Positions 1,538 through 62,252 of a stretch of 64,000 bases of DNA are shown piece by piece. Source of the DNA: an uncultured Clostridia bacterium (lineage in GTDB: Bacteria; Bacillota; Clostridia; TANB77; CAG-508). The translations under genes and the position numbers were made by a program. The stretch's first letter is position 1. Every line of letters starts with the position of its first letter. A model generated the notes under the pieces. The model saw only the letters and a program-made list of their open reading frames with translations, did not search any database and was not told the DNA's origin. The stretch is taken from the NCBI GenBank assembly GCA_948891265.1, contig CAQUBD010000007.1, forward strand, positions 5,043-69,042, written 5' to 3'.

Positions 1538-1663
1538 TTGTCCAAAAGGGACGGTTCTGTTTGGACAAAATGTCCATTTGTACCTGTGCCCATTGGACAT
1601 TTTATCCATTTGGGGACACATCTTCCCTTTGTAATTTTAAATTTTGCATAAGACATCTGTAGC
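1538..1663. repeat. Mosaic intergenic repeat, locus 1 (GTCC/GGAC hairpin modules, GGGGACACATCTT, TGCATAAGACATCTGTAGC)
   Basis: Shares gtccaaaagggacggttct-ttggacaaaatgtccat and gggacacatctt modules with 27591-27648, 28483-28536, 43231-43243 and 32509-32625. Lies between the murB stop and the yvcK-like RBS. Confidence 0.8.
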
Positions 1664-1672
1664 TCATTTTGT

Positions 1673-2599
1673 TCAAACAGCTATCTTAACTTCTAATTCA
1701 ATTTTCTTTCCAAATTTTTCTAATATTTTATCTTGTGTGTATTTTACCAAATCTAATACATCTTTTGCTGTTGCATTTCCTGTGTTTATTATAAATCCTG
1801 CATGTTTTTTTGATATTTGTGCTCCACCTATTGAATATCCTTTTAATCCTGCTTCATCTATTAATTTTGCTGTTATAAAGTCTTCTCCCCTTTTAAATGT
1901 ACTTCCTGCACTTGGATATTCTATAGGTTGTTTTTCTTTTCTATATTTTGCATATTCATCCATTTTTTCTTTTATTTGATCACTACTTCCTCTTTGTAAT
2001 AATAGCTTTGATTGCAAAATTATGTATTCACTGTTTGAAAATCTACTGTGCCTATATTCAAATTTAGATTGCTCATTCGTAAATTTTTGTATCTTTCCAT
2101 TATAGTCCATTACTGTTACTTCTGTAACTATATCTTTCATTTCTTTTCCATGTGCACCCGCATTCATAATAATTGCTCCACCTATTGTGCCTGGTATTCC
2201 AGATAGTTCTTCAAATCCTGATATTTCTTCTTTTAATAATTTTTGTGCCAGTAGTCCTAATGGAACCCCACTTCCTACTGTTATTTTTATTCTTTCTTTA
2301 TCTTCTTGTTGAATTTCTATTTCTTTTAGCTCTAGTTTTATTACTATTCCTTTTATTCCTTCATCTAGTACTAATAAATTGCTTCCATTTCCAACTACTA
2401 TTAAAGGGATTTCATTTTCTTTGCTAAATTTTAATAATTTTTGTATTTCTTCTATTGAATTTACTTTTATAAAAAATTCTGCTGGACCACCTATCTTGAA
2501 TGATGTGTGTTTTTTCATTGATTCATTTTGCTTTATTCTTTCTTCTGGAATGAACTTTTTTAAAATCTCCAATATTTTATTATTTTCCAATTTCAACAC
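1673..2599 (-). CDS. murB: UDP-N-acetylenolpyruvoylglucosamine reductase
   Basis: 308-aa ORF with FKIGGPAEFF, VVGNGSNLLV, GIPGTIGGAIIMNAGAHG and PSAGSTFKRG, motifs characteristic of MurB. Confidence 0.9.
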   Translation of the reverse strand: MLKLENNKILEILKKFIPEERIKQNESMKKHTSFKIGGPAEFFIKVNSIEEIQKLLKFSKENEIPLIVVGNGSNLLVLDEGIKGIVIKLELKEIEIQQEDKERIKITVGSGVPLGLLAQKLLKEEISGFEELSGIPGTIGGAIIMNAGAHGKEMKDIVTEVTVMDYNGKIQKFTNEQSKFEYRHSRFSNSEYIILQSKLLLQRGSSDQIKEKMDEYAKYRKEKQPIEYPSAGSTFKRGEDFITAKLIDEAGLKGYSIGGAQISKKHAGFIINTGNATAKDVLDLVKYTQDKILEKFGKKIELEVKIAV

Positions 2600-8874: not shown

Positions 8875-9060
8875 AATTCTCCTCCATCTTTATTTTTATA
8901 AACTTCTTTATTAATAATAAAAATTATATCAAAATAATTAGGATATTTCAATACATATAAAGTAACTCGTTAAAGTTTCAAAAAAAGAATAATTAATCTA
9001 GTTTATAGAAGATATAATTAAATATTTATGTATAAATAAAATTTTCCTATAATATAAAAA

Positions 9061-24630: not shown

Positions 24631-24717
24631 TGGTGCCGGTGGTGGGACTCGAACCCACACGCCATTTCTGACAACAGATTTTGAGTCTGCCCCGTCTACC
24701 AATTCCAGCACACCGGC
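24631..24717 (-). tRNA. tRNA-Leu (anticodon CAA)
   Basis: Minus strand reads GCCGGTG...CTCAAAA anticodon loop...long variable arm...GGTTCGAGTCCCACCACCGGCACCA. 7-bp acceptor stem, T-loop and encoded CCA. Confidence 0.9.
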
Positions 24718-24830: not shown

Positions 24831-27578
24831 TTATATATTATCATTCCTTATTGTCTCAATAATATTTTGTTTATTAATTTTAGACATAGAATACTTCATA
24901 ATAATACCAATCACAATAGCAACAAATATAACAGAAATCACAATTGATTTAACAGGCAACATATAAGTCATACCCATGTCAATTTCAAAAGCTTTATATA
25001 TCAAATATGATAATCCTACTCCTATTGGAATACCAATAATTAGTGACTTTAACCCATAGAAAATACTTTCTAACCTAATCATTCTATTAAACTCTTTTTT
25101 TGTCATACCAATTGACTTAAGCATTGCAAATTCTTTTCTTCTTAAATTCATATTTGTAGTAATTGTGTTGAAAATATTTGTTATTCCAATTGCTGTTATT
25201 ACTGTAATAAATCCATATAAGAAAATTGAAATTACTAAAACTATAGCATTATTTTGTTTTACAGATTCTTCATAATTTAATATACTTATATCTTCTTCAC
25301 TCATATTTATACTTTTGTAAAATTCTTTTATCTCATCTTCAACTTTAAAACTATCTTTTGTATTTATTTGTATAACATTCAAATTTGAATATCCTATTTT
25401 TTCGATATATTCATCACTTACAAGTAAAAATCCTCTATTACTATACATATTTTCAAATCCCATTGGTCTTTCAGACGTTCTAGCTATCACTTTTATATCT
25501 AAAGGTCTTGAAGTTATATTTGATTTATCTAGTGCTACATCACTTAAAACTGTTATTTTTCCAGTTACAACATCTCCTTTTTGCCATTTATATAAGTTTC
25601 CTTGTATTTTATTTCCTTCTTCATCATGATCTATGCAACTATCAAGTAATATTGCTCCATCTTTGTAATCTTCATATTTTCCACCTATATTTTTAATAAG
25701 CTTATTATATTCTTCTTTTCCTAGAGCCATAATTGTAAGTATATCATTTTTTTCTATTTCGTTTCCATATTCATCATAATTTTTATATCTTTCATCAACA
25801 TCTTTCCCAAATTCTGAAAAATGCTCTTTTCCTTCAATTTCAATTATATTTAATCTTTGTATAGTAAATTCGTCTATTCCTTCTAATTTTGAAACTTCTA
25901 AAAATCTTTCATATTTCTTTTGTAGGTTTTGTTTTGTTATCTCTTCATCTGATCTCTCATATAGTGATATATTATATCCTATTTCTGTATAATATGACTC
26001 TGATGTTTTAAATCCAAACTCTATAAAGCTTGATATCGCTATAAAAGTCACAACACTTACTACTATTGATATTACTGTTGTTCTATATTTCTTTTTACTT
26101 CTTTTTAAGTTTTTATATGCTATTTCTCCACCTGTTTTAAATATCATTTTTATAATTTTAGGACATTTTACTTTCTTAGCTTTTAATTTTATATCATCTG
26201 AATTCCTTATTGCTTCTATTGGTGTTACTTTTGAGGCTTTTCTTGCAGAGCTTTTACATGATAACCATATTGTAATCACTGATATAATAATGCTTAAAAG
26301 TATTGCACCCCAAGAAATACTATAAACTAAATCAATTGTTTCTATATATTTGTTTATTATGTTATTTACTATTTTTAATACAATGTCAATTGCAAATACT
26401 CCACTTAATATTCCTAAAGGAATTCCTATACATCCTAATATAAGACCTTCAAAATACACACTTTTCTTTATTTGTTTTTTTGTAGCTCCTATACTTGAAA
26501 GCATTCCATATTGTTTTAATCTTTCTGTTATTGATATCGCAAAACCATTTCTTATTACAAATACACTTGATACTAAAACTATTGCCATTATAATTCCGCC
26601 TACAGTATATAGAAATTGTAATGTATTATCACTTAAATTTGCACCCTTATAAGACAATAAATCGTAATTTAATGTGAAATCATATTTATAACTTGTATAT
26701 GCTGCATTTCTTAAACCTCTAAAAGTTGTAGCATTTTCTTTTTCTTCACTTGTTTGTGCTTTTACCATTTCATTTATTTGTTCGGTATATTCTTGATATT
26801 TGAATAAGTTTTTGTATAATACTGATATATTGGCATTGCTTTTGACATTTTCTAATTTAGTTATAACTGTATATCCTGGTGCAGAATAATCTTCCATAAA
26901 TGGTCTTTGTATTATTCCTACAATTTTATATTCTTTTTTTGTAGTATTCACAATTTCTTCTTCAAACTCATCTTTAGGTTGCTTATTTTTCGTTATTTCA
27001 ACTGTTTCATTTTCTGTTATGTGAAGAGTTGTTTCTGAATTTTCTGTTCCAGTTAAATATGGATTGTTTTGTGTTAGTTTTTCTCCTGTTGTAAGCTGCC
27101 TTGTTCCTACATCTAATGTGATTGTATCTCCTACTTTTAGATTTACTTTTCCATTTGCTATAATATGATTTGAAATTACTAATTCCTTTTCATTTTCAGG
27201 CATTCTTCCTTCTGTTATTGATAATCCCATATTTGCTAAATATTTGTTATCCATTGCAAGTACATTCACATATGGCTTGTATTTGTTTTTGCTTCCTTCC
27301 AAATATGAGTATCCTAACTCTTCTGATAAGTAATAATCTTCTACATTTCTATTTTCTTCTATGTATTTTAGCTCTTCTTTTGGGATTTCATAAAATGTTG
27401 CATGATAGTTCCCTTCTCTTTCTTTTACCATTTCAATTAAAGTATTTTGAAAACTTGTGATAATTCCTGCAACTCCACATATTAATGCTGTTGAAAGAAT
27501 TATTCCTATAATTATAACTAATGAACGTTTTTTGTTTAGTTTCAAATCTTTAATACTTAAATTATTTAATATTTTCAT
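24831..27578 (-). CDS. ABC transporter permease, FtsX/MacB-type with two permease halves
   Basis: About 915 aa with N-terminal TM, large extracytoplasmic regions and two 4-TM FtsX-like blocks. Start placed at MKILNNLSIKDLK (AAAGGAGGG RBS). The track start at 27623 lies inside the intergenic repeat. Confidence 0.85.
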   Translation of the reverse strand: MKILNNLSIKDLKLNKKRSLVIIIGIILSTALICGVAGIITSFQNTLIEMVKEREGNYHATFYEIPKEELKYIEENRNVEDYYLSEELGYSYLEGSKNKYKPYVNVLAMDNKYLANMGLSITEGRMPENEKELVISNHIIANGKVNLKVGDTITLDVGTRQLTTGEKLTQNNPYLTGTENSETTLHITENETVEITKNKQPKDEFEEEIVNTTKKEYKIVGIIQRPFMEDYSAPGYTVITKLENVKSNANISVLYKNLFKYQEYTEQINEMVKAQTSEEKENATTFRGLRNAAYTSYKYDFTLNYDLLSYKGANLSDNTLQFLYTVGGIIMAIVLVSSVFVIRNGFAISITERLKQYGMLSSIGATKKQIKKSVYFEGLILGCIGIPLGILSGVFAIDIVLKIVNNIINKYIETIDLVYSISWGAILLSIIISVITIWLSCKSSARKASKVTPIEAIRNSDDIKLKAKKVKCPKIIKMIFKTGGEIAYKNLKRSKKKYRTTVISIVVSVVTFIAISSFIEFGFKTSESYYTEIGYNISLYERSDEEITKQNLQKKYERFLEVSKLEGIDEFTIQRLNIIEIEGKEHFSEFGKDVDERYKNYDEYGNEIEKNDILTIMALGKEEYNKLIKNIGGKYEDYKDGAILLDSCIDHDEEGNKIQGNLYKWQKGDVVTGKITVLSDVALDKSNITSRPLDIKVIARTSERPMGFENMYSNRGFLLVSDEYIEKIGYSNLNVIQINTKDSFKVEDEIKEFYKSINMSEEDISILNYEESVKQNNAIVLVISIFLYGFITVITAIGITNIFNTITTNMNLRRKEFAMLKSIGMTKKEFNRMIRLESIFYGLKSLIIGIPIGVGLSYLIYKAFEIDMGMTYMLPVKSIVISVIFVAIVIGIIMKYSMSKINKQNIIETIRNDNI

Positions 27579-27590
27579 AGTTCCCTCCTT

Positions 27591-27648
27591 TTGTCCTTTT
27601 GGGGACGTTTCCTTTTGGGACAAAAATGTCCTTTTGGGGACACATCTT
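27591..27648. repeat. Mosaic intergenic repeat, locus 2
   Basis: ttgtccttttggggacgtttccttttgggacaaaaatgtccttttggggacacatctt fills the gap between the ATPase stop (27650) and the permease RBS. Confidence 0.8.
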
Positions 27649-27649
27649 G

Positions 27650-28330
27650 TTATTTATTTTTTTCATCTTTTATAATTTTTCCATCGTCTATAGTGATGAT
27701 TCTATCAGCTTCTAATGCTATTTTTTCATCATGAGTTATAATAATAACAGTTTGATTATACTTTTTATTAGAAAGTTTTAATAATGACACTATTTCTTCA
27801 CTTGCTTTAGAATCCAAGTTACCTGTTGGTTCATCTGCAAGCATTATTGCTGGTTCATTCATCATTGCTCTTCCTATTGATACTCTTTGTTGTTGTCCTC
27901 CTGATAATTGATTAGGCAAATTATTTTTTCTGTTTTCTAGTCCTAATGTTTGTAATAAATCATTTAATCTTTTTTCATTTATCTCTTTTCTATCTAAACT
28001 ACATGGTAATGTTATATTTTCTACTACATTTAGAACTGGTATTAAATTATAAAATTGATATATTAATCCTACTTGCCTTCTTCTAAATATTGCTAGATTA
28101 TCATCACTTAGTGTGTATATGTCTTTTCCTTCTATAAATACTTTTCCTGATGTTGGTCTGTCTACTCCACCTAACATGTGTAATAGTGTTGATTTTCCAC
28201 TTCCACTTGCTCCTATTATTGCAACAAATTCTCCTTTTTCTATTGAGAATGATATGTTGTCTACTGCTTTTACTTTGTTTGCTCCTTTTCCATATGTTTT
28301 GCTTAAATTCTCTACTCTTAAAATTTCCAT
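27650..28330 (-). CDS. ABC transporter ATP-binding protein (MacB/LolD-like)
   Basis: Walker A GASGSGKST, signature LSGGQQQRV, Walker B MLADEPTGNLD. Confidence 0.9.
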   Translation of the reverse strand: MEILRVENLSKTYGKGANKVKAVDNISFSIEKGEFVAIIGASGSGKSTLLHMLGGVDRPTSGKVFIEGKDIYTLSDDNLAIFRRRQVGLIYQFYNLIPVLNVVENITLPCSLDRKEINEKRLNDLLQTLGLENRKNNLPNQLSGGQQQRVSIGRAMMNEPAIMLADEPTGNLDSKASEEIVSLLKLSNKKYNQTVIIITHDEKIALEADRIITIDDGKIIKDEKNK

Positions 28331-28343
28331 TTTTTCTCCTTTC

Positions 28344-28536
28344 TCTTCGCTTCGCTTCGTTCATCGTCATCCAAAATTTTTTTCAAAAATTTTGTCTGCC
28401 AAATCTTGCCTTTGAAGCGTTTTCGCTTCGCTTCGTTCATCGTCATCCAAAATTTTTTTCAAAATCTTGTCTGTTAACTTTTGCCCAAAAGGGACGGTTC
28501 TTTTTGGACAAAATGTCCATTTTGGACACATCTTAA
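28344..28536. repeat. Mosaic intergenic repeat, locus 3 (two TCGCTTCGCTTCGTTCATCGTCATCC units plus a GTCC/GGAC module)
   Basis: Units at 28347-28372 and 28423-28448, each followed by aaaatttttttcaaaa. Then cccaaaagggacggttctttttggacaaaatgtccattttggacacatcttaa (28483-28536). Confidence 0.85.
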
Positions 28537-28710
28537 ATTTTTCTATATCTAAGTATAATTTGTTAATGTGACTTTTAAGTGACTTCAGAAATATTACAAG
28601 AATATTACATTTTTTTTAAAAAACTATTAAAATTATGAAAACTATTGAATAAGCTGTTAAATTAATATAAGATATAATAAATAACACTATTTTTAGGAGG
28701 TCTCTTTATA

Positions 28711-32508: not shown

Positions 32509-32625
32509 AAGATGTGTCCCAAAATTTAATGTAAGTAGAATTTGTTTCACAAATTCTGCATAAGTCATCTGTAACAAGCAAAGCTTTAACAGCTGACTTA
32601 AAAGGAAACGTCCCTAATGGGACAT
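32509..32625. repeat. Mosaic intergenic repeat, locus 6 (opposite orientation to the other loci)
   Basis: aagatgtgtccc (32509-32520), tgcataagtcatctgtaac and acgtccctaatgggacat (32608-32625). Twin hairpins agaattt[ag]tttca[tc]aaattct. The last module provides the final codons and stop of the PBP ORF. Confidence 0.7.
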
Positions 32626-43170: not shown

Positions 43171-43243
43171 TGTCCTTTCGCTTCGCTCATCATAAAATAA
43201 GAAATTTTCAATTTCTTATTTTACAAATTTGGGACACATCTTA
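43171..43243. repeat. Mosaic intergenic repeat, locus 4
   Basis: tgtcctttcgcttcgctcatcat (degenerate unit), hairpin aaataagaaatt/aatttcttattt, then tttgggacacatctta overlapping the ftsY stop. Confidence 0.65.
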
Positions 43244-44146: not shown

Positions 44147-44433
44147 AATCTCTCCTCATACATTTTTTGATGTTTTTATATTAACATATTACATATATTT
44201 TTTCAAGTTTTATATAATTTTTAAGTTTCGTTTTTTTAAGCTCTAATTTATATAAAAATTTATAATATATCCTAAAATTCCGTTCTTTGCTGGTCGAACT
44301 AATCATATAAAGTTGTTTATTAAACTTTCAAAAAAAGAAAAGTTAATCTAGCTGATCTGTATAAATATGAATTCTCCCAACTGCGCATCACTGCATTTTA
44401 GGATATATTATAAATTTTAAGTTTGAACATGAA

Positions 44434-45617: not shown

Positions 45618-45673
45618 GCTTAATTCTCCTATAAATATTATATGTTGATTTTGATTTTGTATTCTGAAAATAA

Positions 45674-45770
45674 GAACAAAAGGGACATGATTAAAATTTT
45701 TTAACATTTTAACTTACTTAGATGCCCCGTTTTTGTTCGCACGCGAAAATTGCATTGCAATTTTCTGTAG
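45674..45770 (+). repeat. Two-hairpin intergenic repeat (family C), copy 1
   Basis: About 90 percent identical to the reverse complement of 59597-59691. Hairpin GAACAAAAGGGACATG...GATGCCCCGTTTTTGTTC, then hairpin GCGAAAATTGCATTGCAATTTTC. Confidence 0.8.
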
Positions 45771-51057: not shown

Positions 51058-51801
51058 ATGAAGAAAATTACTTTAGGACTTATCACTTTATTAGTTATGT
51101 GCTTTCTGGTAGGTTGCGGTAACAGCAACAGCAGTAGTCATTATAGCAATGCTAATAAAGAGATAATTGCAGAAATTCAGCAGACACTTAATCAAAATGA
51201 CATCCAAGTGCTAACCGCCTTTGGAGATAATTTTGAGGCAAAAAAGAGCTTGATTCAGTCTTCAGAGTTACATTCGGATGGATTGATTGCACTTTGTACT
51301 AATCCAAAGCCTATGAATCTTGATAACGATACAGTTCAAAGTTGGTTTAAAGAAGCAATCAAAAGAACAGAATTGACAGCAGAGCAACAAGTTCAGATTG
51401 TTAAGATTGGTGAATTTGCTTACAATAAAATATTGTTATTGAACACCAATTTGACTGCAGAAGGACTGGTCGCAATATGTGAGAATCCTGGAACCTTGAA
51501 CCTTGATAACGATACAGTTCAAAGTTGGTTTAAAGAAGCAATCAAAAGAACAGAATTGACAGCAGAGCAACAAGTTCAGATTGTTAAGATTGGTGAATTT
51601 GCTTACAATAAAATATTGTTATTGAACACCAATTTGACTGCAGAAGGACTGGTCGCAATATGTGAGAATCCTGGAACCTTGAACCTTGATAACGATACAG
51701 TTCAAAGTTGGTTTAAAGAAGCAATCAAAAGAACAGAATTGACGGCAGAGCAAAAGGCTCAGATTGCGAAATCCAAAATCCAAGAAATGGGGCTATTTTA
51801 A
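51058..51801 (+). CDS. Lipoprotein with tandem 61-aa repeats
   Basis: Signal peptide and lipobox LLVMCFLVGC-G. Body consists of repeats NLDNDTVQSWFKEAIKRTELTAEQQVQIVKIGEFAYNKILLLNTNLTAEGLVAICENPGT. Confidence 0.75.
   Translation: MKKITLGLITLLVMCFLVGCGNSNSSSHYSNANKEIIAEIQQTLNQNDIQVLTAFGDNFEAKKSLIQSSELHSDGLIALCTNPKPMNLDNDTVQSWFKEAIKRTELTAEQQVQIVKIGEFAYNKILLLNTNLTAEGLVAICENPGTLNLDNDTVQSWFKEAIKRTELTAEQQVQIVKIGEFAYNKILLLNTNLTAEGLVAICENPGTLNLDNDTVQSWFKEAIKRTELTAEQKAQIAKSKIQEMGLF
51319..51755 (+). repeat. Tandem repeat with 183-bp period, about 2.4 copies; first two copies appear identical
   Basis: cttgataacgatacagttcaaagttgg... recurs at 51319, 51502 and 51685. Confidence 0.9.
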
Positions 51802-51876
51802 TATTTAAAGGAACTTATATGATAATAAATGCACCAATACTAAGGAATTTTCTTCTTAGTGTTGGTGCATTTTATT

Positions 51877-55361: not shown

Positions 55362-55718
55362 TGGTGGAGATGAGGGGAATCGAACCCCTGTCCATAATAC
55401 TATCCAAATAGACCTCTACAAGTTTAGTTTATCATTTATTTTCTTTTTTAATTCACCGATAAACAGGTTAATTAAAAATATATCTTTATAAAATACCCCC
55501 TACTTCTAAAGAAAAAGTAGCTTTGTTCCCTACTTTAATTTTACACCTTAATTTAAACCAGTAGGCTATCTAAATAAGATGACACTGCAATTAGGCAGCG
55601 TATGCTAATTCTTGATTATCAGCGTTTATTTTTATTTTCTCGTTTATTTAAGTGGCCAACGAGAATCCACTACTTGCTATCTATATTTCATGTAATATGT
55701 CGAAACCATTACATCCCC
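55362..55718 (-). ncRNA. ssrA: tmRNA
   Basis: 5' GGGGATGTAATGGTTTCGAC... and 3' ...GGGGTTCGATTCCCCTCATCTCCACCA tRNA-like ends. Internal tag ORF GCT GAT AAT CAA GAA TTA GCA TAC GCT GCC TAA (ADNQELAYAA). Confidence 0.9.
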
Positions 55719-59596: not shown

Positions 59597-59691
59597 CACA
59601 GAAAATTCAATGCAATTTTCGCGGGCGAACAAAAACGGAGCATGTAAGTAAGCTAAAATGTTAAAAATTTTTAATCATGCCCCTTTTGTTC
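59597..59691 (-). repeat. Two-hairpin intergenic repeat (family C), copy 2
   Basis: Its reverse complement aligns with 45674-45770 at about 90 percent identity. Confidence 0.8.
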
Positions 59692-59824
59692 TCAACTTAA
59701 TTAAACTGTGAATTGTAACTTCGTATTTAAAATTAAAAGTTATAATATATGTCAACTTTCGACAGACTTTTCATATTTTATATATTATTATATATATTAT
59801 CTTAAGACAGAAGGAGGAAAATCT

Positions 59825-60113: not shown

Positions 60114-61440
60114 TTATGCTGTTTCTTTGTTTTTCTTATCTGGTATATGCCTATTTCTTTTAGAATTTGCTTTTCCATTACTCTTATTTTCATCTATCAC
60201 TACTTCTGGTTCTTTTTTATCTAATACTGTCTCTTTAGTTATTCTACATTTTGATATATTAGGAGTAGATGGTATTTCAAACATTATATCTCTCATTATT
60301 TCTTCAATAATTGAACGAAGTCCTCTTGCCCCTGTTTTTCTTTCTATTGCTTTATCAACAATTGCCTCCAAAGCTTCTTGCTTAAATTCAAGCATAACAT
60401 CATCCATTTCTAATAATTTTTGATACTGTTTTACTAATGCATTTTTTGGCTCTGTTGCAATTTTTATTAGAGCTTCCTTGTCTAAATCTTTAAGTGTTGC
60501 AATAATTGGTAATCTACCTATAAATTCAGGTATAAGACCATATTTTAATAAATCTTGTGGTAGCATTTCTTGAAATATTTCATATTTATTAATTTCATTT
60601 TGGCTTTCGATTTTAGTTCCAAAGCCTATACTTTTTTTACCAGTTCTATCTTTAATTATATTTTCTAGACCTTCAAATGCCCCTCCACATATAAATAAAA
60701 TATTTTCAGTATTTATTTGTATCATTTCTTGATTTGGATGTTTTCTTCCTCCTTGTGGTGGAACTGATGCAATTGTACCTTCAACTATTTTTAATAAAGC
60801 TTGTTGTACGCCTTCTCCGACTTACATCTCTAGTTATTGATAGATTTTCAGATTTTCTTGTTATTTTGTCAATCTCATCTATATATACTATACCTTTTTC
60901 TGCTTTTTGAATATCTCCATCTGCTGCTTGGATAAGCTTTAATAATATATTTTCAACATCTTCACCAACATAACCTGCTTCTGTCAATGTTGTAGCATCT
61001 GCTATTGCAAATGGTACATTTAAAATTTTTGCAAGAGTTCTTGCAAGAAGTGTTTTTCCACATCCTGTTGGTCCTAAAAGTAATATATTACTTTTTTGAA
61101 TTTCTACATCATCTTTTTTGTTATTGTCTCCTTCATGCGCAATTCTTTTATAGTGGTTATATACAGCTACAGATAACGTTTTCTTTGCTTCTTCTTGTCC
61201 TATTACATAATCATCTAAAACTTCCTTTATTTCTTTAGGACTTGGTATTTTATCTAAATCATTTAAAGTATATCCTACTTCTTCATCTTCATAATTTTCA
61301 GCAGCAATTATACTTGTGCATAAATCTACACATTCATCACAAATATAAACCCCTGGTCCTGCAACTATTTTTTTTACACTTTCTTGTGATTTTCCACAAA
61401 ATGAACATTTTACATTTTTAGGTACATCATTTTTAGCCAT
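60114..61440 (-). pseudogene. clpX: ATP-dependent Clp protease ATP-binding subunit ClpX with a +1 frame break at CGG 60817-60819
   Basis: N-terminal part has zinc ribbon CSFCGK...CDEC and Walker A GPTGCGKT, and ends ...SITRDVS then CGG. The +1 frame continues [48 protein letters not shown]... (track ORFs 60781-61440 and 60114-60725). Confidence 0.9.
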
Positions 61441-61451
61441 GCTTTTTCTCC

Positions 61452-61640
61452 CTTTCTCTACGCTTCGCTTCGTTCATCGTCATCCTTTTAGCGGTTACAA
61501 ATTCGCTATCGCTCATTTGCATAAGATATCCGTATCTCATTTCATTTCGAACGGCTATCTCAATTTCCATCTGCCAAATCTTGCCTTCGAAGCCTTTTCG
61601 CTTCGCTTCGTTCATCGTCATATAAAGATTTTTCAAAATC
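61452..61640. repeat. Mosaic intergenic repeat, locus 5, filling the clpP-clpX spacer
   Basis: CGCTTCGCTTCGTTCATCGTCATCC at 61461-61485 and TCGCTTCGCTTCGTTCATCGTCAT at 61598-61621. ctgccaaatcttgccttcgaagcc and tttttcaaaatctt are shared with 28396-28466. Confidence 0.85.
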
Positions 61641-62252
61641 TTATATTCTTTTATCCATAATACCATCAATTAAACCATAAGCTAATGCTTCTTGAGCTGT
61701 CATATAATGGTCTCTTTCAGTATCTCTTTCAATTACTTCTATTGGTTGACCTGTTTTTTCACTTAGCAATTTATTCAATTTTTCTCTTGTTCTTATCATA
61801 TGGTCTGCATGAATTTTTATTTCAGTTGCTTGGCCTGAAATTCCTCCGCCTTGCCCCCCTATTAATGGTTGATGTATCAATATTTCTGAATTTGGCGTTG
61901 CAAATCTTTTTCCTTTTTCACCATTTGCTAATAAAACCGCTCCAAAACTTGCAGCTAATCCTACACATATTGTTGTTACTGGACATTTAATATAATTCAT
62001 TGTATCTACTATTCCCATTCCATCTGTTATAGATCCTCCAGGTGAATTTATATAAAGAAAAATTTCTTTATCGGGATCTTCTGATTCTAAGAATAATAAT
62101 TGTGCAATTACTAAACTTGCAGATGTTGCATTTACATCCTCTCCTAAAAATATAATTCTATCTTTTAATAATCTTGAGAAAATATCATATGATCTTTCTC
62201 CTTTACTTGTTTGTTCAACTACATAAGGTACTAAACTATTTTTTTCTAACAT
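61641..62252 (-). CDS. clpP: ATP-dependent Clp protease proteolytic subunit
   Basis: GLAASFGA (Ser), IHQPL (His) and typical length. Confidence 0.95.

What the first reader, a model, noticed from the sequence alone, without database searches (positions are those of the whole stretch)
28344..28536. Mosaic (BIME-like) intergenic repeats sit between a stop codon and the next gene's RBS
Short modules recur in different combinations at 1538-1663, 27591-27648, 28344-28536, 43171-43243, 61452-61640 and, inverted, at 32509-32625. The modules are AAGATGTGTCCC (mRNA sense, right after stops of the ABC ATPase, ftsY and murB), chains of GTCC/GGAC mini-hairpins, GGATGACGATGAACGAAGCGAAGCG with the hairpin GAAGCG-loop-CGCTTC, and TGCATAAGNCATCTGTA. 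Proximal copies run straight into the SD and ATG of the ABC ATPase gene and clpX. Similarity there continues through GAAGCG-AGAGAAAGG-AGAAAAA, so the element may supply or modulate ribosome binding. I recognise no described repeat family here.
Basis: seen in the sequence. Interest (0 to 1): 0.65.

Follow-up and report, generated by a model that had tools for sequence, protein, structure and literature searches.

The report
Modular intergenic repeats carrying a ribosome-binding site
An uncultured gut Clostridia lineage carries a previously undescribed family of short, hairpin-forming repeats between its genes, and one repeat type provides the ribosome-binding site of the gene behind it; repeats of this kind are already known from other bacteria.

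Summary
The modules recur far above chance in the window. They also occur in about 12 related uncultured gut Clostridia genomes and in several metagenome contigs.

There are three module types, and each starts with AAGAT:
- **A:** REP-like GTCC/GGAC palindromes, found in either orientation.
- **B:** a long hairpin (H1), then a purine tract GATGACGATGAACGAAGCGAAGCG, then a Shine-Dalgarno (SD) sequence 4-5 nt later.
- **L:** two extra hairpins replacing the top of H1.

Module B is always in mRNA sense. Its last copy ends 10-24 nt before a start codon in every complete array, covering more than 20 gene families. H1 and the L hairpin P2 keep their pairing through compensatory changes. B forms tandem arrays with 76- or 139-nt periods. 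Only the gene-proximal copy stays intact.

Congeneric species have short clpP-clpX and sufC spacers with their own SD and no B.

Most likely B is a co-transcribed 5'-leader cassette: a hairpin followed by an open ribosome-binding site. How it spreads is unknown. No Rfam, phage or plasmid match was found. Close functional analogues exist: Neisseria REP2, BOX, MIRU and REP/BIME. This is a new family of a known kind.

The parts
28483..28534 (-). Module A: AAGATGTGTCC head followed by GTCC/GGAC mini-palindromes. It is the most upstream part of the ABC ATPase leader.
   Evidence: Fold z-score is -4.0 on the - strand and -3.2 on the + strand. 95% identical to 1538-1579 (D17).
28414..28482 (-). Distal module B copy: a variant H1 hairpin, the core at 28424-28447, and the H2 hairpin GAAGCG-AAAA-CGCTTC at 28414-28429.
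   Evidence: nhmmer 50 bits. 76-nt spacing to the next copy (D2/D3).
28336..28407 (-). Gene-proximal module B copy: AAGATTTGGCAGAC, the H1 hairpin, GGATGAC, the core at 28348-28371, and the tail AAGAGAAAGGAG with the SD GGAG at 28336-28339. The ATG of the ABC ATPase gene is at 28328-28330.
   Evidence: (67 bits). The same arrangement occurs in a second strain.
61589..61642 (-). Start of the clpP-clpX spacer: a small AAGATTTTGAAAAATCTT hairpin overlapping the clpP stop codon, the distal B core at 61599-61622 (1 mismatch), and the H2 hairpin at 61589-61604.
61496..61582 (-). Long form (module L): AAGATTTGGCAGAT; then hairpin P2 (GAGATAGCCGT at 61551-61561 pairing with ACGGATATCTT at 61523-61533); then hairpin P3 at 61496-61522, whose loop holds GCGATAGC.
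   Evidence: P2 is 97% paired, and 5 of its 10 pairs show changes on both sides.
61448..61485 (-). Gene-proximal B core at 61461-61484 with GGATGAC and the tail TAGAGAAAGGGAG (the SD). The clpX ATG is at 61438-61440.
   Evidence: Related species lack it and have their own SD.
27593..27648 (-). Module A between the ABC ATPase stop (27650-27652) and the SD (27585-27589) and ATG (27577-27579) of the FtsX/MacB permease gene.
1540..1624 (-). Module A, running into the SD (1534-1539) and ATG (1525-1527) of the CofD/YvcK-like gene.
1645..1687 (-). Module L hairpin P2 (AAGATAGCTGT ... ACAGATGTCTT) plus ATGCA. It overlaps the last four codons and the TGA stop of murB (1673-1687).
43172..43242 (-). Composite between ftsY and the UPF0182 gene: an A head overlapping the ftsY stop, an AT-rich hairpin, a decayed B core GATGAGCGAAGCGAAAGGA (43177-43195), and then the SD.
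   Evidence: weak nhmmer hit; z-score -4.0.
32509..32623 (.). Composite between the PBP gene and the response-regulator gene. The A head (32509-32520) is inverted on the + strand. The L hairpin (TACAGATGACTTATGCA, 32557-32573) is in - sense. The GTCCCTAATGGGAC palindrome lies at 32610-32623.

Best explanation
This is a lineage-specific family of small modular repeats that occupy intergenic spacers and are transcribed as part of the flanking mRNAs.

Module A is a REP-like string of GTCC/GGAC palindromes. It sits between a stop codon and the next SD and works in either orientation.

Module B is a portable 5'-leader cassette with three parts:
- a roughly 16-19 bp hairpin (H1) with a conserved tandem G.A internal loop;
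- about 35 nt of unpaired purine-rich RNA containing GCGAAGC;
- a canonical SD, GAAAGGAG.

The gene-proximal copy is the functional ribosome-binding site of the downstream gene. The upstream hairpin plausibly acts as a 5' stabiliser or processing landmark, and the purine tract keeps the SD and AUG accessible.

Module L replaces the top of H1 with two further hairpins. Arrays grow and shrink by tandem duplication, with 76- or 139-nt units, and distal copies decay.

Shown here: the family exists, the hairpins are conserved, the SD register and orientation are fixed, the native spacer was replaced, and only the proximal copy is conserved.

Inferred: the element acts at the RNA level, it affects translation or mRNA stability, and the way it spreads.
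For: - **Real family.** Motif counts are far above shuffles. Copies are found in about 12 MAG species and in metagenome contigs. Their k-mers are 7-28 times single-copy depth in a DNA run.
- **Position.** Every complete B array is in sense orientation, with its core ending 10-24 nt before a start codon. This covers more than 20 gene families, including prfA, der, dnaK, clpX, adk, pth, sufC, ireB, ABC transporters and glycosyltransferases. The tail [A/T]AG[A/T]GAAAGGA follows the core at a fixed distance.
- **Structure.** H1 is 97% paired, 5 pairs show changes on both sides, and 0 of 500 shuffles reach the observed score. P2 is 97% paired with changes on both sides in 5 of 10 pairs. There are 45 G-U cells in mRNA sense against 5 in antisense.
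- **Open ribosome-binding site.** The SD and AUG are predicted to be unpaired. They are more accessible than in control genes: 0.69 against 0.54, p = 0.002.
- **Replacement.** Three groups of closely related species (ClpP 97-99% identical; clpX 88% at the nucleotide level where measured, in two of the groups) have 44-83 nt clpP-clpX spacers with their own SD and no B. sufC also lacks B in one group.
- **Selection on the proximal copy.** It is the best copy in 12 of 17 arrays, equal in 5 and never worse.
- **Stability at orthologous sites.** B sits at the same place upstream of prfA, der, dnaK and clpX in several species.
Against: - There is no direct expression evidence. Only assembled contigs of metatranscriptomes were available, with coverage that looks like DNA and no 5'/3'-end information.
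- All B copies lie on the G-rich strand and in front of genes that look like leading-strand genes. Orientation relative to the gene therefore cannot be separated from orientation relative to replication. G-T pairs would also be tolerated in single-stranded DNA.
- The strong sequence conservation of the purine core is not explained by a merely unstructured spacer.
- The accessibility test uses related, non-independent leaders.
- No mechanism of spread was found.
Confidence: 0.55

Rival explanations
1. These are selfish hairpin elements acting at the DNA level, like REP/RAYT or the miniature derivatives of IS200/IS605. A transposase encoded elsewhere moves them through single-stranded DNA on the lagging-strand template. 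They have no function of their own and are tolerated only in spacers, where a built-in SD makes the insertion harmless.
For: - Module A is made of palindromes that fold equally well on both strands and occur in both orientations.
- There are no terminal inverted repeats and no target duplications.
- All B copies are on the strand that is single-stranded at the replication fork.
- The core holds GCGAAGC and the L loops hold GCGAAGC or GCGATAGC. These fit the very stable DNA mini-hairpin consensus GCGNAGC/GCGNNAGC (PMC13037366).
- Presence or absence differs between congeneric species.
- Every module starts with AAGAT, usually after TT, which could be a cleavage or target motif.
Against: - No transposase is associated with the elements in the window or in the fetched loci.
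- A fixed SD-to-start-codon relation in every complete array is hard to obtain from target choice alone.
- The proximal copy is selectively conserved while distal copies decay.
- B occupies the same orthologous sites in several species, so it is not highly mobile.
- The native SD is gone, not just displaced.
Confidence: 0.2
2. Module B is the operator of a post-transcriptional regulon. A trans-acting RNA-binding protein or small RNA recognises the conserved purine tract or the GCGAAGC motif next to the SD. It thereby co-regulates translation of proteostasis and translation-factor genes.
For: - The 24-nt tract is nearly invariant while the H1 stem is free to covary.
- The tract has a 5-nt periodicity (GAAGC GAAGC GAAGA GAAAG GAG) that runs into the SD. 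From my own knowledge, this recalls TRAP-type sites that overlap an SD.
- The same GAGCGAAGCGAA motif is displayed in the loops of P2 and P3.
- The gene set includes dnaK, clpX, prfA, der, pth and an ABC-F protein.
- In Neisseria, REP2 repeats sit in front of 14 co-regulated genes (PMC3184786).
Against: - The gene set is functionally broad: glycosyltransferases, ABC exporters, a radical SAM enzyme and unknown membrane proteins.
- Congeneric species manage without B at clpX and sufC.
- No antisense partner was seen in the sequence on hand.
- No candidate binding protein was identified.
Confidence: 0.15
3. The repeats encode a small peptide (MTMNEAKR...) or a leader peptide whose translation is coupled to the downstream gene, as proposed for MIRU repeats.
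For: ATGACGATGAAC is conserved. In the window the reading frame from that ATG ends inside the clpX start region, at 61432-61434.
Against: - The unit lengths of 76 and 139 nt are not multiples of three.
- The frame relative to the main gene is spread 12/8/8 over 28 leaders, which is no preference. The stop falls anywhere from -4 to +80 nt relative to the start codon.
- There is no SD in front of the upstream ATG.
Confidence: 0.03

Closest known systems
Neisseria REP2 (contact-regulated element) and the Borrelia plasmid IR repeats
   Same: These are interspersed repeats without terminal inverted repeats. They lie immediately upstream of open reading frames, carry the ribosome-binding site, form stem-loops in the 5' UTR, and occur in tens of copies per genome (PMC3184786).
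   Different: - REP2 is 120-150 bp and also carries a promoter and the ATG. Module B has no promoter-like site and stops at the SD, with a variable 5-14 nt to the start codon.
- B forms tandem arrays and has a long form with two extra hairpins.
- The phylum is different. Sequence similarity could not be tested because no REP2 sequence was on hand.
BOX elements of Streptococcus pneumoniae
   Same: Modular build with a variable number of internal modules. Located in intergenic regions, transcribed, hairpin-forming, and able to modulate expression of neighbouring genes (PMC3184786).
   Different: BOX has a fixed boxA-boxB(n)-boxC order and no built-in SD in register with a start codon. Here the modules combine freely and B is tied to start codons.
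Mycobacterial interspersed repetitive units (MIRU)
   Same: Tandem units of 40-100 bp with variable copy number, lying in spacers of operons in the same direction as the genes, at about 40-50 loci per genome (PMC3184786).
   Different: MIRUs contain small reading frames that overlap the flanking genes. Here no reading frame is kept, and the hairpins are conserved instead.
REP/BIME of enterobacteria
   Same: Module A consists of short imperfect palindromes in alternating orientation, placed after stop codons within operons. From my own knowledge, REPs there stabilise upstream mRNA and, when close to a stop codon, affect translation termination.
   Different: There is no GTAG-type head (the head is AAGAT), the stems are only 4-5 bp of GTCC/GGAC, no RAYT transposase is known here, and modules B and L are not palindromic units.

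Membership tests
REP/BIME (RAYT-associated) | Imperfect palindromic units of 20-40 nt in extragenic DNA | tested here: met
   Module A only: GTCC-N3-8-GGAC units, folding on both strands.
REP/BIME (RAYT-associated) | Conserved GTAG-type tetranucleotide at the foot of the hairpin | tested here: not met
   The head is AAGAT(G)TG in all copies.
REP/BIME (RAYT-associated) | A cognate RAYT (Y1 transposase) gene flanked by the repeats | not testable with these tools
   Only 64 kb plus scattered 8-20 kb loci were available. None was seen next to the elements.
MITE | Terminal inverted repeats and target-site duplication | tested here: not met
   The B ends, AAGATTTGGCAGAC and GAAAGGAG, are unrelated. 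Filled and empty clpP-clpX spacers show replacement, not insertion with a duplication.
Neisseria REP2-type upstream repeat | Ribosome-binding site inside the repeat, immediately upstream of ORFs | tested here: met
   The SD is in a fixed register after the core in every complete array.
Neisseria REP2-type upstream repeat | Promoter and ATG inside the repeat | tested here: not met
   No promoter-like site lies inside the elements. The distance to the start codon varies between 10 and 24 nt.
Neisseria REP2-type upstream repeat | Sequence homology to REP2 | not tested
   No REP2 reference sequence was on hand. The organisms belong to different phyla.
MIRU | Tandem 40-100 bp units in operon spacers, oriented with the genes | tested here: met
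   76-nt arrays in sense orientation. The 139-nt unit is longer than the MIRU range.
MIRU | Small ORFs in the unit that overlap the stop and start codons of the flanking genes | tested here: not met
   The periods are not multiples of 3, and there is no frame preference.
Any Rfam family (riboswitch, leader, ribozyme, IS-associated RNA) | Covariance-model score at or above the gathering threshold | tested here: not met
   Only tmRNA and tRNA reach the threshold in the window. The best sub-threshold hits are noise, for example IS605-orfB-I at 16 bits against a cut-off of 94.
IS200/IS605-derived miniature elements | Strand-specific orientation with replication, subterminal hairpins at both ends, and a conserved short target 5' of the left end | tested here: inconclusive
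   All B copies are on the G-rich strand, but this is confounded with gene orientation. B has a single hairpin. The heads are often preceded by TT.

The most novel reading that the evidence does not exclude
Module B is a self-propagating 'portable ribosome-binding site'. It overwrites the native 5' leaders of housekeeping genes by an as yet unknown, SD-anchored copying mechanism. Its invariant purine tract (with the GCGAAGC mini-hairpin) is recognised by a dedicated trans-acting factor. Together these would create a lineage-specific post-transcriptional regulon covering dnaK, clpX, prfA, der, pth and others.
Probability: 0.12. Interest if true: 0.7.

Novelty: new member of a known kind. Interest (0 to 1): 0.4.

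Why it matters
These bacteria are common in gut metagenomes. One ClpP variant 97% identical to the window's is listed in 2081 blocks of the assembly collection.

The repeats break short-read assemblies at these sites. They also sit in front of core genes such as dnaK, clpX, prfA and der. Knowing the family helps annotation, because 5' UTRs, start codons and spurious small ORFs in the arrays can then be recognised. The variable arrays could also serve as strain-typing markers.

The family is also a natural experiment. The same genes have either a native leader or a cassette leader in sister species. This makes it possible to test directly what an upstream hairpin plus purine tract does for translation and mRNA stability in Clostridia.

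Tried and rejected
- **Small ORF or leader peptide:** rejected.
- **Sigma-70 promoter or intrinsic terminator inside the elements:** none found. By eye, TTGGCA...N does not fit the sigma-54 spacing.
- **Ribozymes, riboswitches, T-box, IS-associated RNAs:** no Rfam hit even at E = 10.
- **Chi-like or other dispersed oriented oligomer:** GAAGCG and its relatives are rare outside the elements.
- **Phage, plasmid or viral origin:** no match.
- **Literature search for the core sequence:** only unrelated hits.
- **RNA evidence:** three RNA or probable-RNA runs hold the region, but only as assembled contigs with DNA-like coverage. They give no transcript ends.
- **Complementarity of the core to 16S rRNA:** not testable, because no rRNA is present in any fetched sequence.
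- **Separating gene orientation from replication orientation:** GC3 and TA3 skew were too noisy, and all B genes look like leading-strand genes.
- **Metagenome pattern scan:** two thirds of the 36 hits were chance matches in high-GC DNA.
- **Strain comparison at the focal locus:** the A-B-B array was identical in both strains, so no copy-number variation was seen there.

Full report
**Organism and setting.** The window has 22-30% G+C, and most genes are on the - strand, so I read the elements in - (mRNA) sense. An identical ABC ATPase protein with the same upstream region occurs on a 69.8-kb contig of assembly GCA_948642255.1. Public runs that hold the sequence are mainly mouse and rat gut metagenomes.

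**The observation.**
- The 24-mer GATGACGATGAACGAAGCGAAGCG occurs 4 times with at most 1 mismatch, against 0 expected.
- AAGATGTGTCCC occurs 5 times against 0.06 expected.
- GTCC-N-GGAC occurs 5 times against 0.25 expected.
- Pfam confirms the neighbouring genes.
- In a DNA run of the same organism, single-copy depth is about 30. The repeats reach about 210 (module A) and 600-850 (B and L). Contigs break at these sites. This indicates tens of copies per genome or community.

**Beyond the window.** An exact scan of one genome per species (185,579 species) found the 24-mer in 18 stretches. They come from about 12 MAGs labelled uncultured Clostridia or Clostridium, from human and mouse gut, with 23-30% G+C. 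A degenerate scan of metagenome contigs added 12 true loci; the other 24 hits were chance matches in high-GC DNA. Coding DNA in these loci is 86-94% identical between species, so the family belongs to a narrow, genus-like group.

**Anatomy.** Three module types can be told apart, and all begin with AAGAT.

*Module A* is AAGATGTGTCCC followed by TGTCC/GGACA mini-palindromes. It folds equally well on both strands and occurs in both orientations. Its last GGACA lies 0-10 nt before the next gene's SD.

*Module B* reads AAGATTTGGCAGAC, stem, loop, stem, TGGATGAC, GATGAACGAAGCGAAGCG.
- Internal copies continue with a small hairpin (GAAGC-loop-GCTTC).
- The last copy continues with [A/T]AG[A/T]GAAAGGA, which is the SD.
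- The hairpin H1 spans GGCAGAC to GGATGAC. Across 30 distinct copies its canonical pairs are 97% paired and 5 pairs show changes on both sides. No shuffle out of 500 reaches the observed covariation, and the register beats all slid registers.
- An internal GA/GA loop is kept in 27 of 30 copies and becomes Watson-Crick in the other three.
- G-U pairs are nine times more frequent in mRNA sense than in antisense.

It replaces the top of H1 with two hairpins.
- P2 (AAGATAGCTGT pairing with ACAGATNTCTT) is 97% paired in 11 copies. Five of its 10 pairs show changes on both sides, and a central G.A or A.A mismatch is never paired.
- P3 comes in two versions.
- The closing helix of the resulting three-way junction is inferred, not predicted by the energy model.
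- The motif GAGCGAAGCGAA, or GCGATAGC, recurs in the P2 and P3 loops and in the B core. Both fit the GCGNAGC/GCGNNAGC mini-hairpin consensus.

**Position of B.**
- All complete arrays are in the sense of the downstream gene. They comprise 34 arrays, reducing to more than 20 gene families after collapsing orthologues. The core ends 10-24 nt before the start codon.
- The genes are diverse: prfA, der, dnaK, clpX, adk, pth, sufC, an ABC-F protein, ireB, a radical SAM enzyme, UDP-sugar pyrophosphorylase, glycosyltransferases, ABC exporters, an FHA protein and unknowns.
- No second SD lies between the element and the start codon, so the element's SD is the gene's SD.
- Units repeat every 76 nt (window, L013, L014) or every 139 nt (L011), with shorter units of 57-66 nt in some arrays (L007, L017, L022).
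- In 17 multi-copy arrays the gene-proximal core has the fewest mismatches in 12, ties in 5 and is never worse. Distal copies drift towards A+T.

**Empty sites.** ClpP homologues 97-99% identical to the window's led to three other species groups.
- Their clpP-clpX spacers are 44-83 nt long and unrelated to one another.
- Each has its own SD (AATGGAGGAAA or AAAAGGAAGGA) and none holds B. No B hit was found in 20 fetched loci, which together represent about 60 kb of distinct sequence.
- sufC carries B in L010 but lacks it in the third species group (the 99% ClpP look-up, loci L065-L074).
- clpX DNA is 87-88% identical between the window and both a B-bearing species (L006) and the two B-free groups compared. 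B is therefore polymorphic among close species.
- Where B is present, the whole native spacer including its SD has been replaced. There is no target duplication.
- Short A-like pieces do occur in the B-free species.
- At the focal locus, two strains share the identical A-B-B array and differ by a 69-nt indel further upstream.

**Mechanism.**
- The elements hold no promoter- or terminator-like sites. A promoter-like site ends just upstream of module A at 28537-28566. In prfA and pth loci, good -35/-10 boxes lie a few nucleotides upstream of B. So B is the whole 5' UTR there, and an intercistronic leader at clpX.
- Folding leaves the purine tract, the SD and the AUG unpaired. Predicted accessibility of positions -18 to +6 is higher than in control genes: 0.69 against 0.54, p = 0.002, with non-independent leaders.
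- I therefore favour a co-transcribed leader cassette: a hairpin that can protect or define a 5' end, followed by an open, strong ribosome-binding site.
- From my own knowledge, 5' stem-loops and strong SD sequences stabilise mRNAs in Bacillus. The shared AAG|AU heads in front of hairpins could be endonuclease landmarks. This is inference.

**Limits and rivals.**
- No transcript-end data could be obtained.
- All B copies lie on the G-rich strand and in front of genes that look like leading-strand genes. A single-stranded DNA role therefore cannot be excluded. The mini-hairpin motif and the palindromic module A fit that reading.
- The near-invariant purine tract, with a 5-nt periodicity running into the SD, also fits an operator for a trans-acting factor. 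However, the gene set is broad, and sister species do without it.
- A coding role is rejected.

**Comparison with known families.**
- No Rfam family matches.
- No phage, plasmid or viral contig matches.
- A literature search for the core sequence found nothing relevant.
- Functionally, B resembles Neisseria REP2 and the Borrelia IR repeats. These carry a ribosome-binding site and sit directly upstream of ORFs, but they also contain a promoter and the ATG.
- The modular build recalls BOX, the tandem arrays in operon spacers recall MIRU, and module A recalls REP/BIME.
- None of these memberships holds on its defining features.

**Verdict.** This is a new, lineage-specific family of a known kind of element. 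It is well supported as real and structured. Its RNA-level role is plausible but untested.

Noticed in passing
window 60114-61440 (- strand), near 60818: clpX is split into two ORFs (219 aa and about 229 aa) by one extra C compared with an intact orthologue (L006). The same sequence, with no differences, is present in independent DNA (X1) and RNA (X5) assemblies. It is therefore not an error of this assembly. It may be a pseudogene or a frameshift that is read through.
   Followed up: partly
window 45673-45763 (- sense) and 59602-59692 (+ sense): A second, unrelated repeat of about 100 nt, 91% identical between the two copies. It has a long hairpin (GAACAAAAACGGGGCAT...ATGTCCCTTTTGTTC). Each copy lies upstream of a gene, in that gene's sense. 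No Rfam match at E <= 1.
   Followed up: partly
window 1673-1687 (- strand): The last four codons (K I A V) and the TGA stop of murB lie inside the 5' arm and loop of a module L hairpin. The repeat therefore contributes the end of the coding sequence.
   Followed up: partly
window about 28590-28660, compared with L075: A 69-nt insertion/deletion between two strains in the region upstream of module A. It removes one of the two promoter-like sites and leaves the A-B-B array untouched.
   Followed up: partly
window 51277-51825: Three tandem copies of a 183-nt unit (100%, 91% and 64% identity), almost entirely inside the ORF 51058-51801. This points to a protein with internal 61-residue repeats.
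   Followed up: no
window 8954-9006 and 44304-44356; 44255-44418: A 53-nt direct repeat (81% identical) at two distant intergenic sites. The second copy lies inside a 54-nt-arm inverted repeat.
   Followed up: no
window 55362-55718 and 24631-24717 (- strand): A tmRNA gene (tag peptide ADNQELAYAA) and a tRNA-Leu(CAA) gene. These are the only Rfam or ARAGORN hits in the window.
   Followed up: no
L002 480-760: Two module A copies lie head to head in one spacer, a BIME-like arrangement.
   Followed up: no
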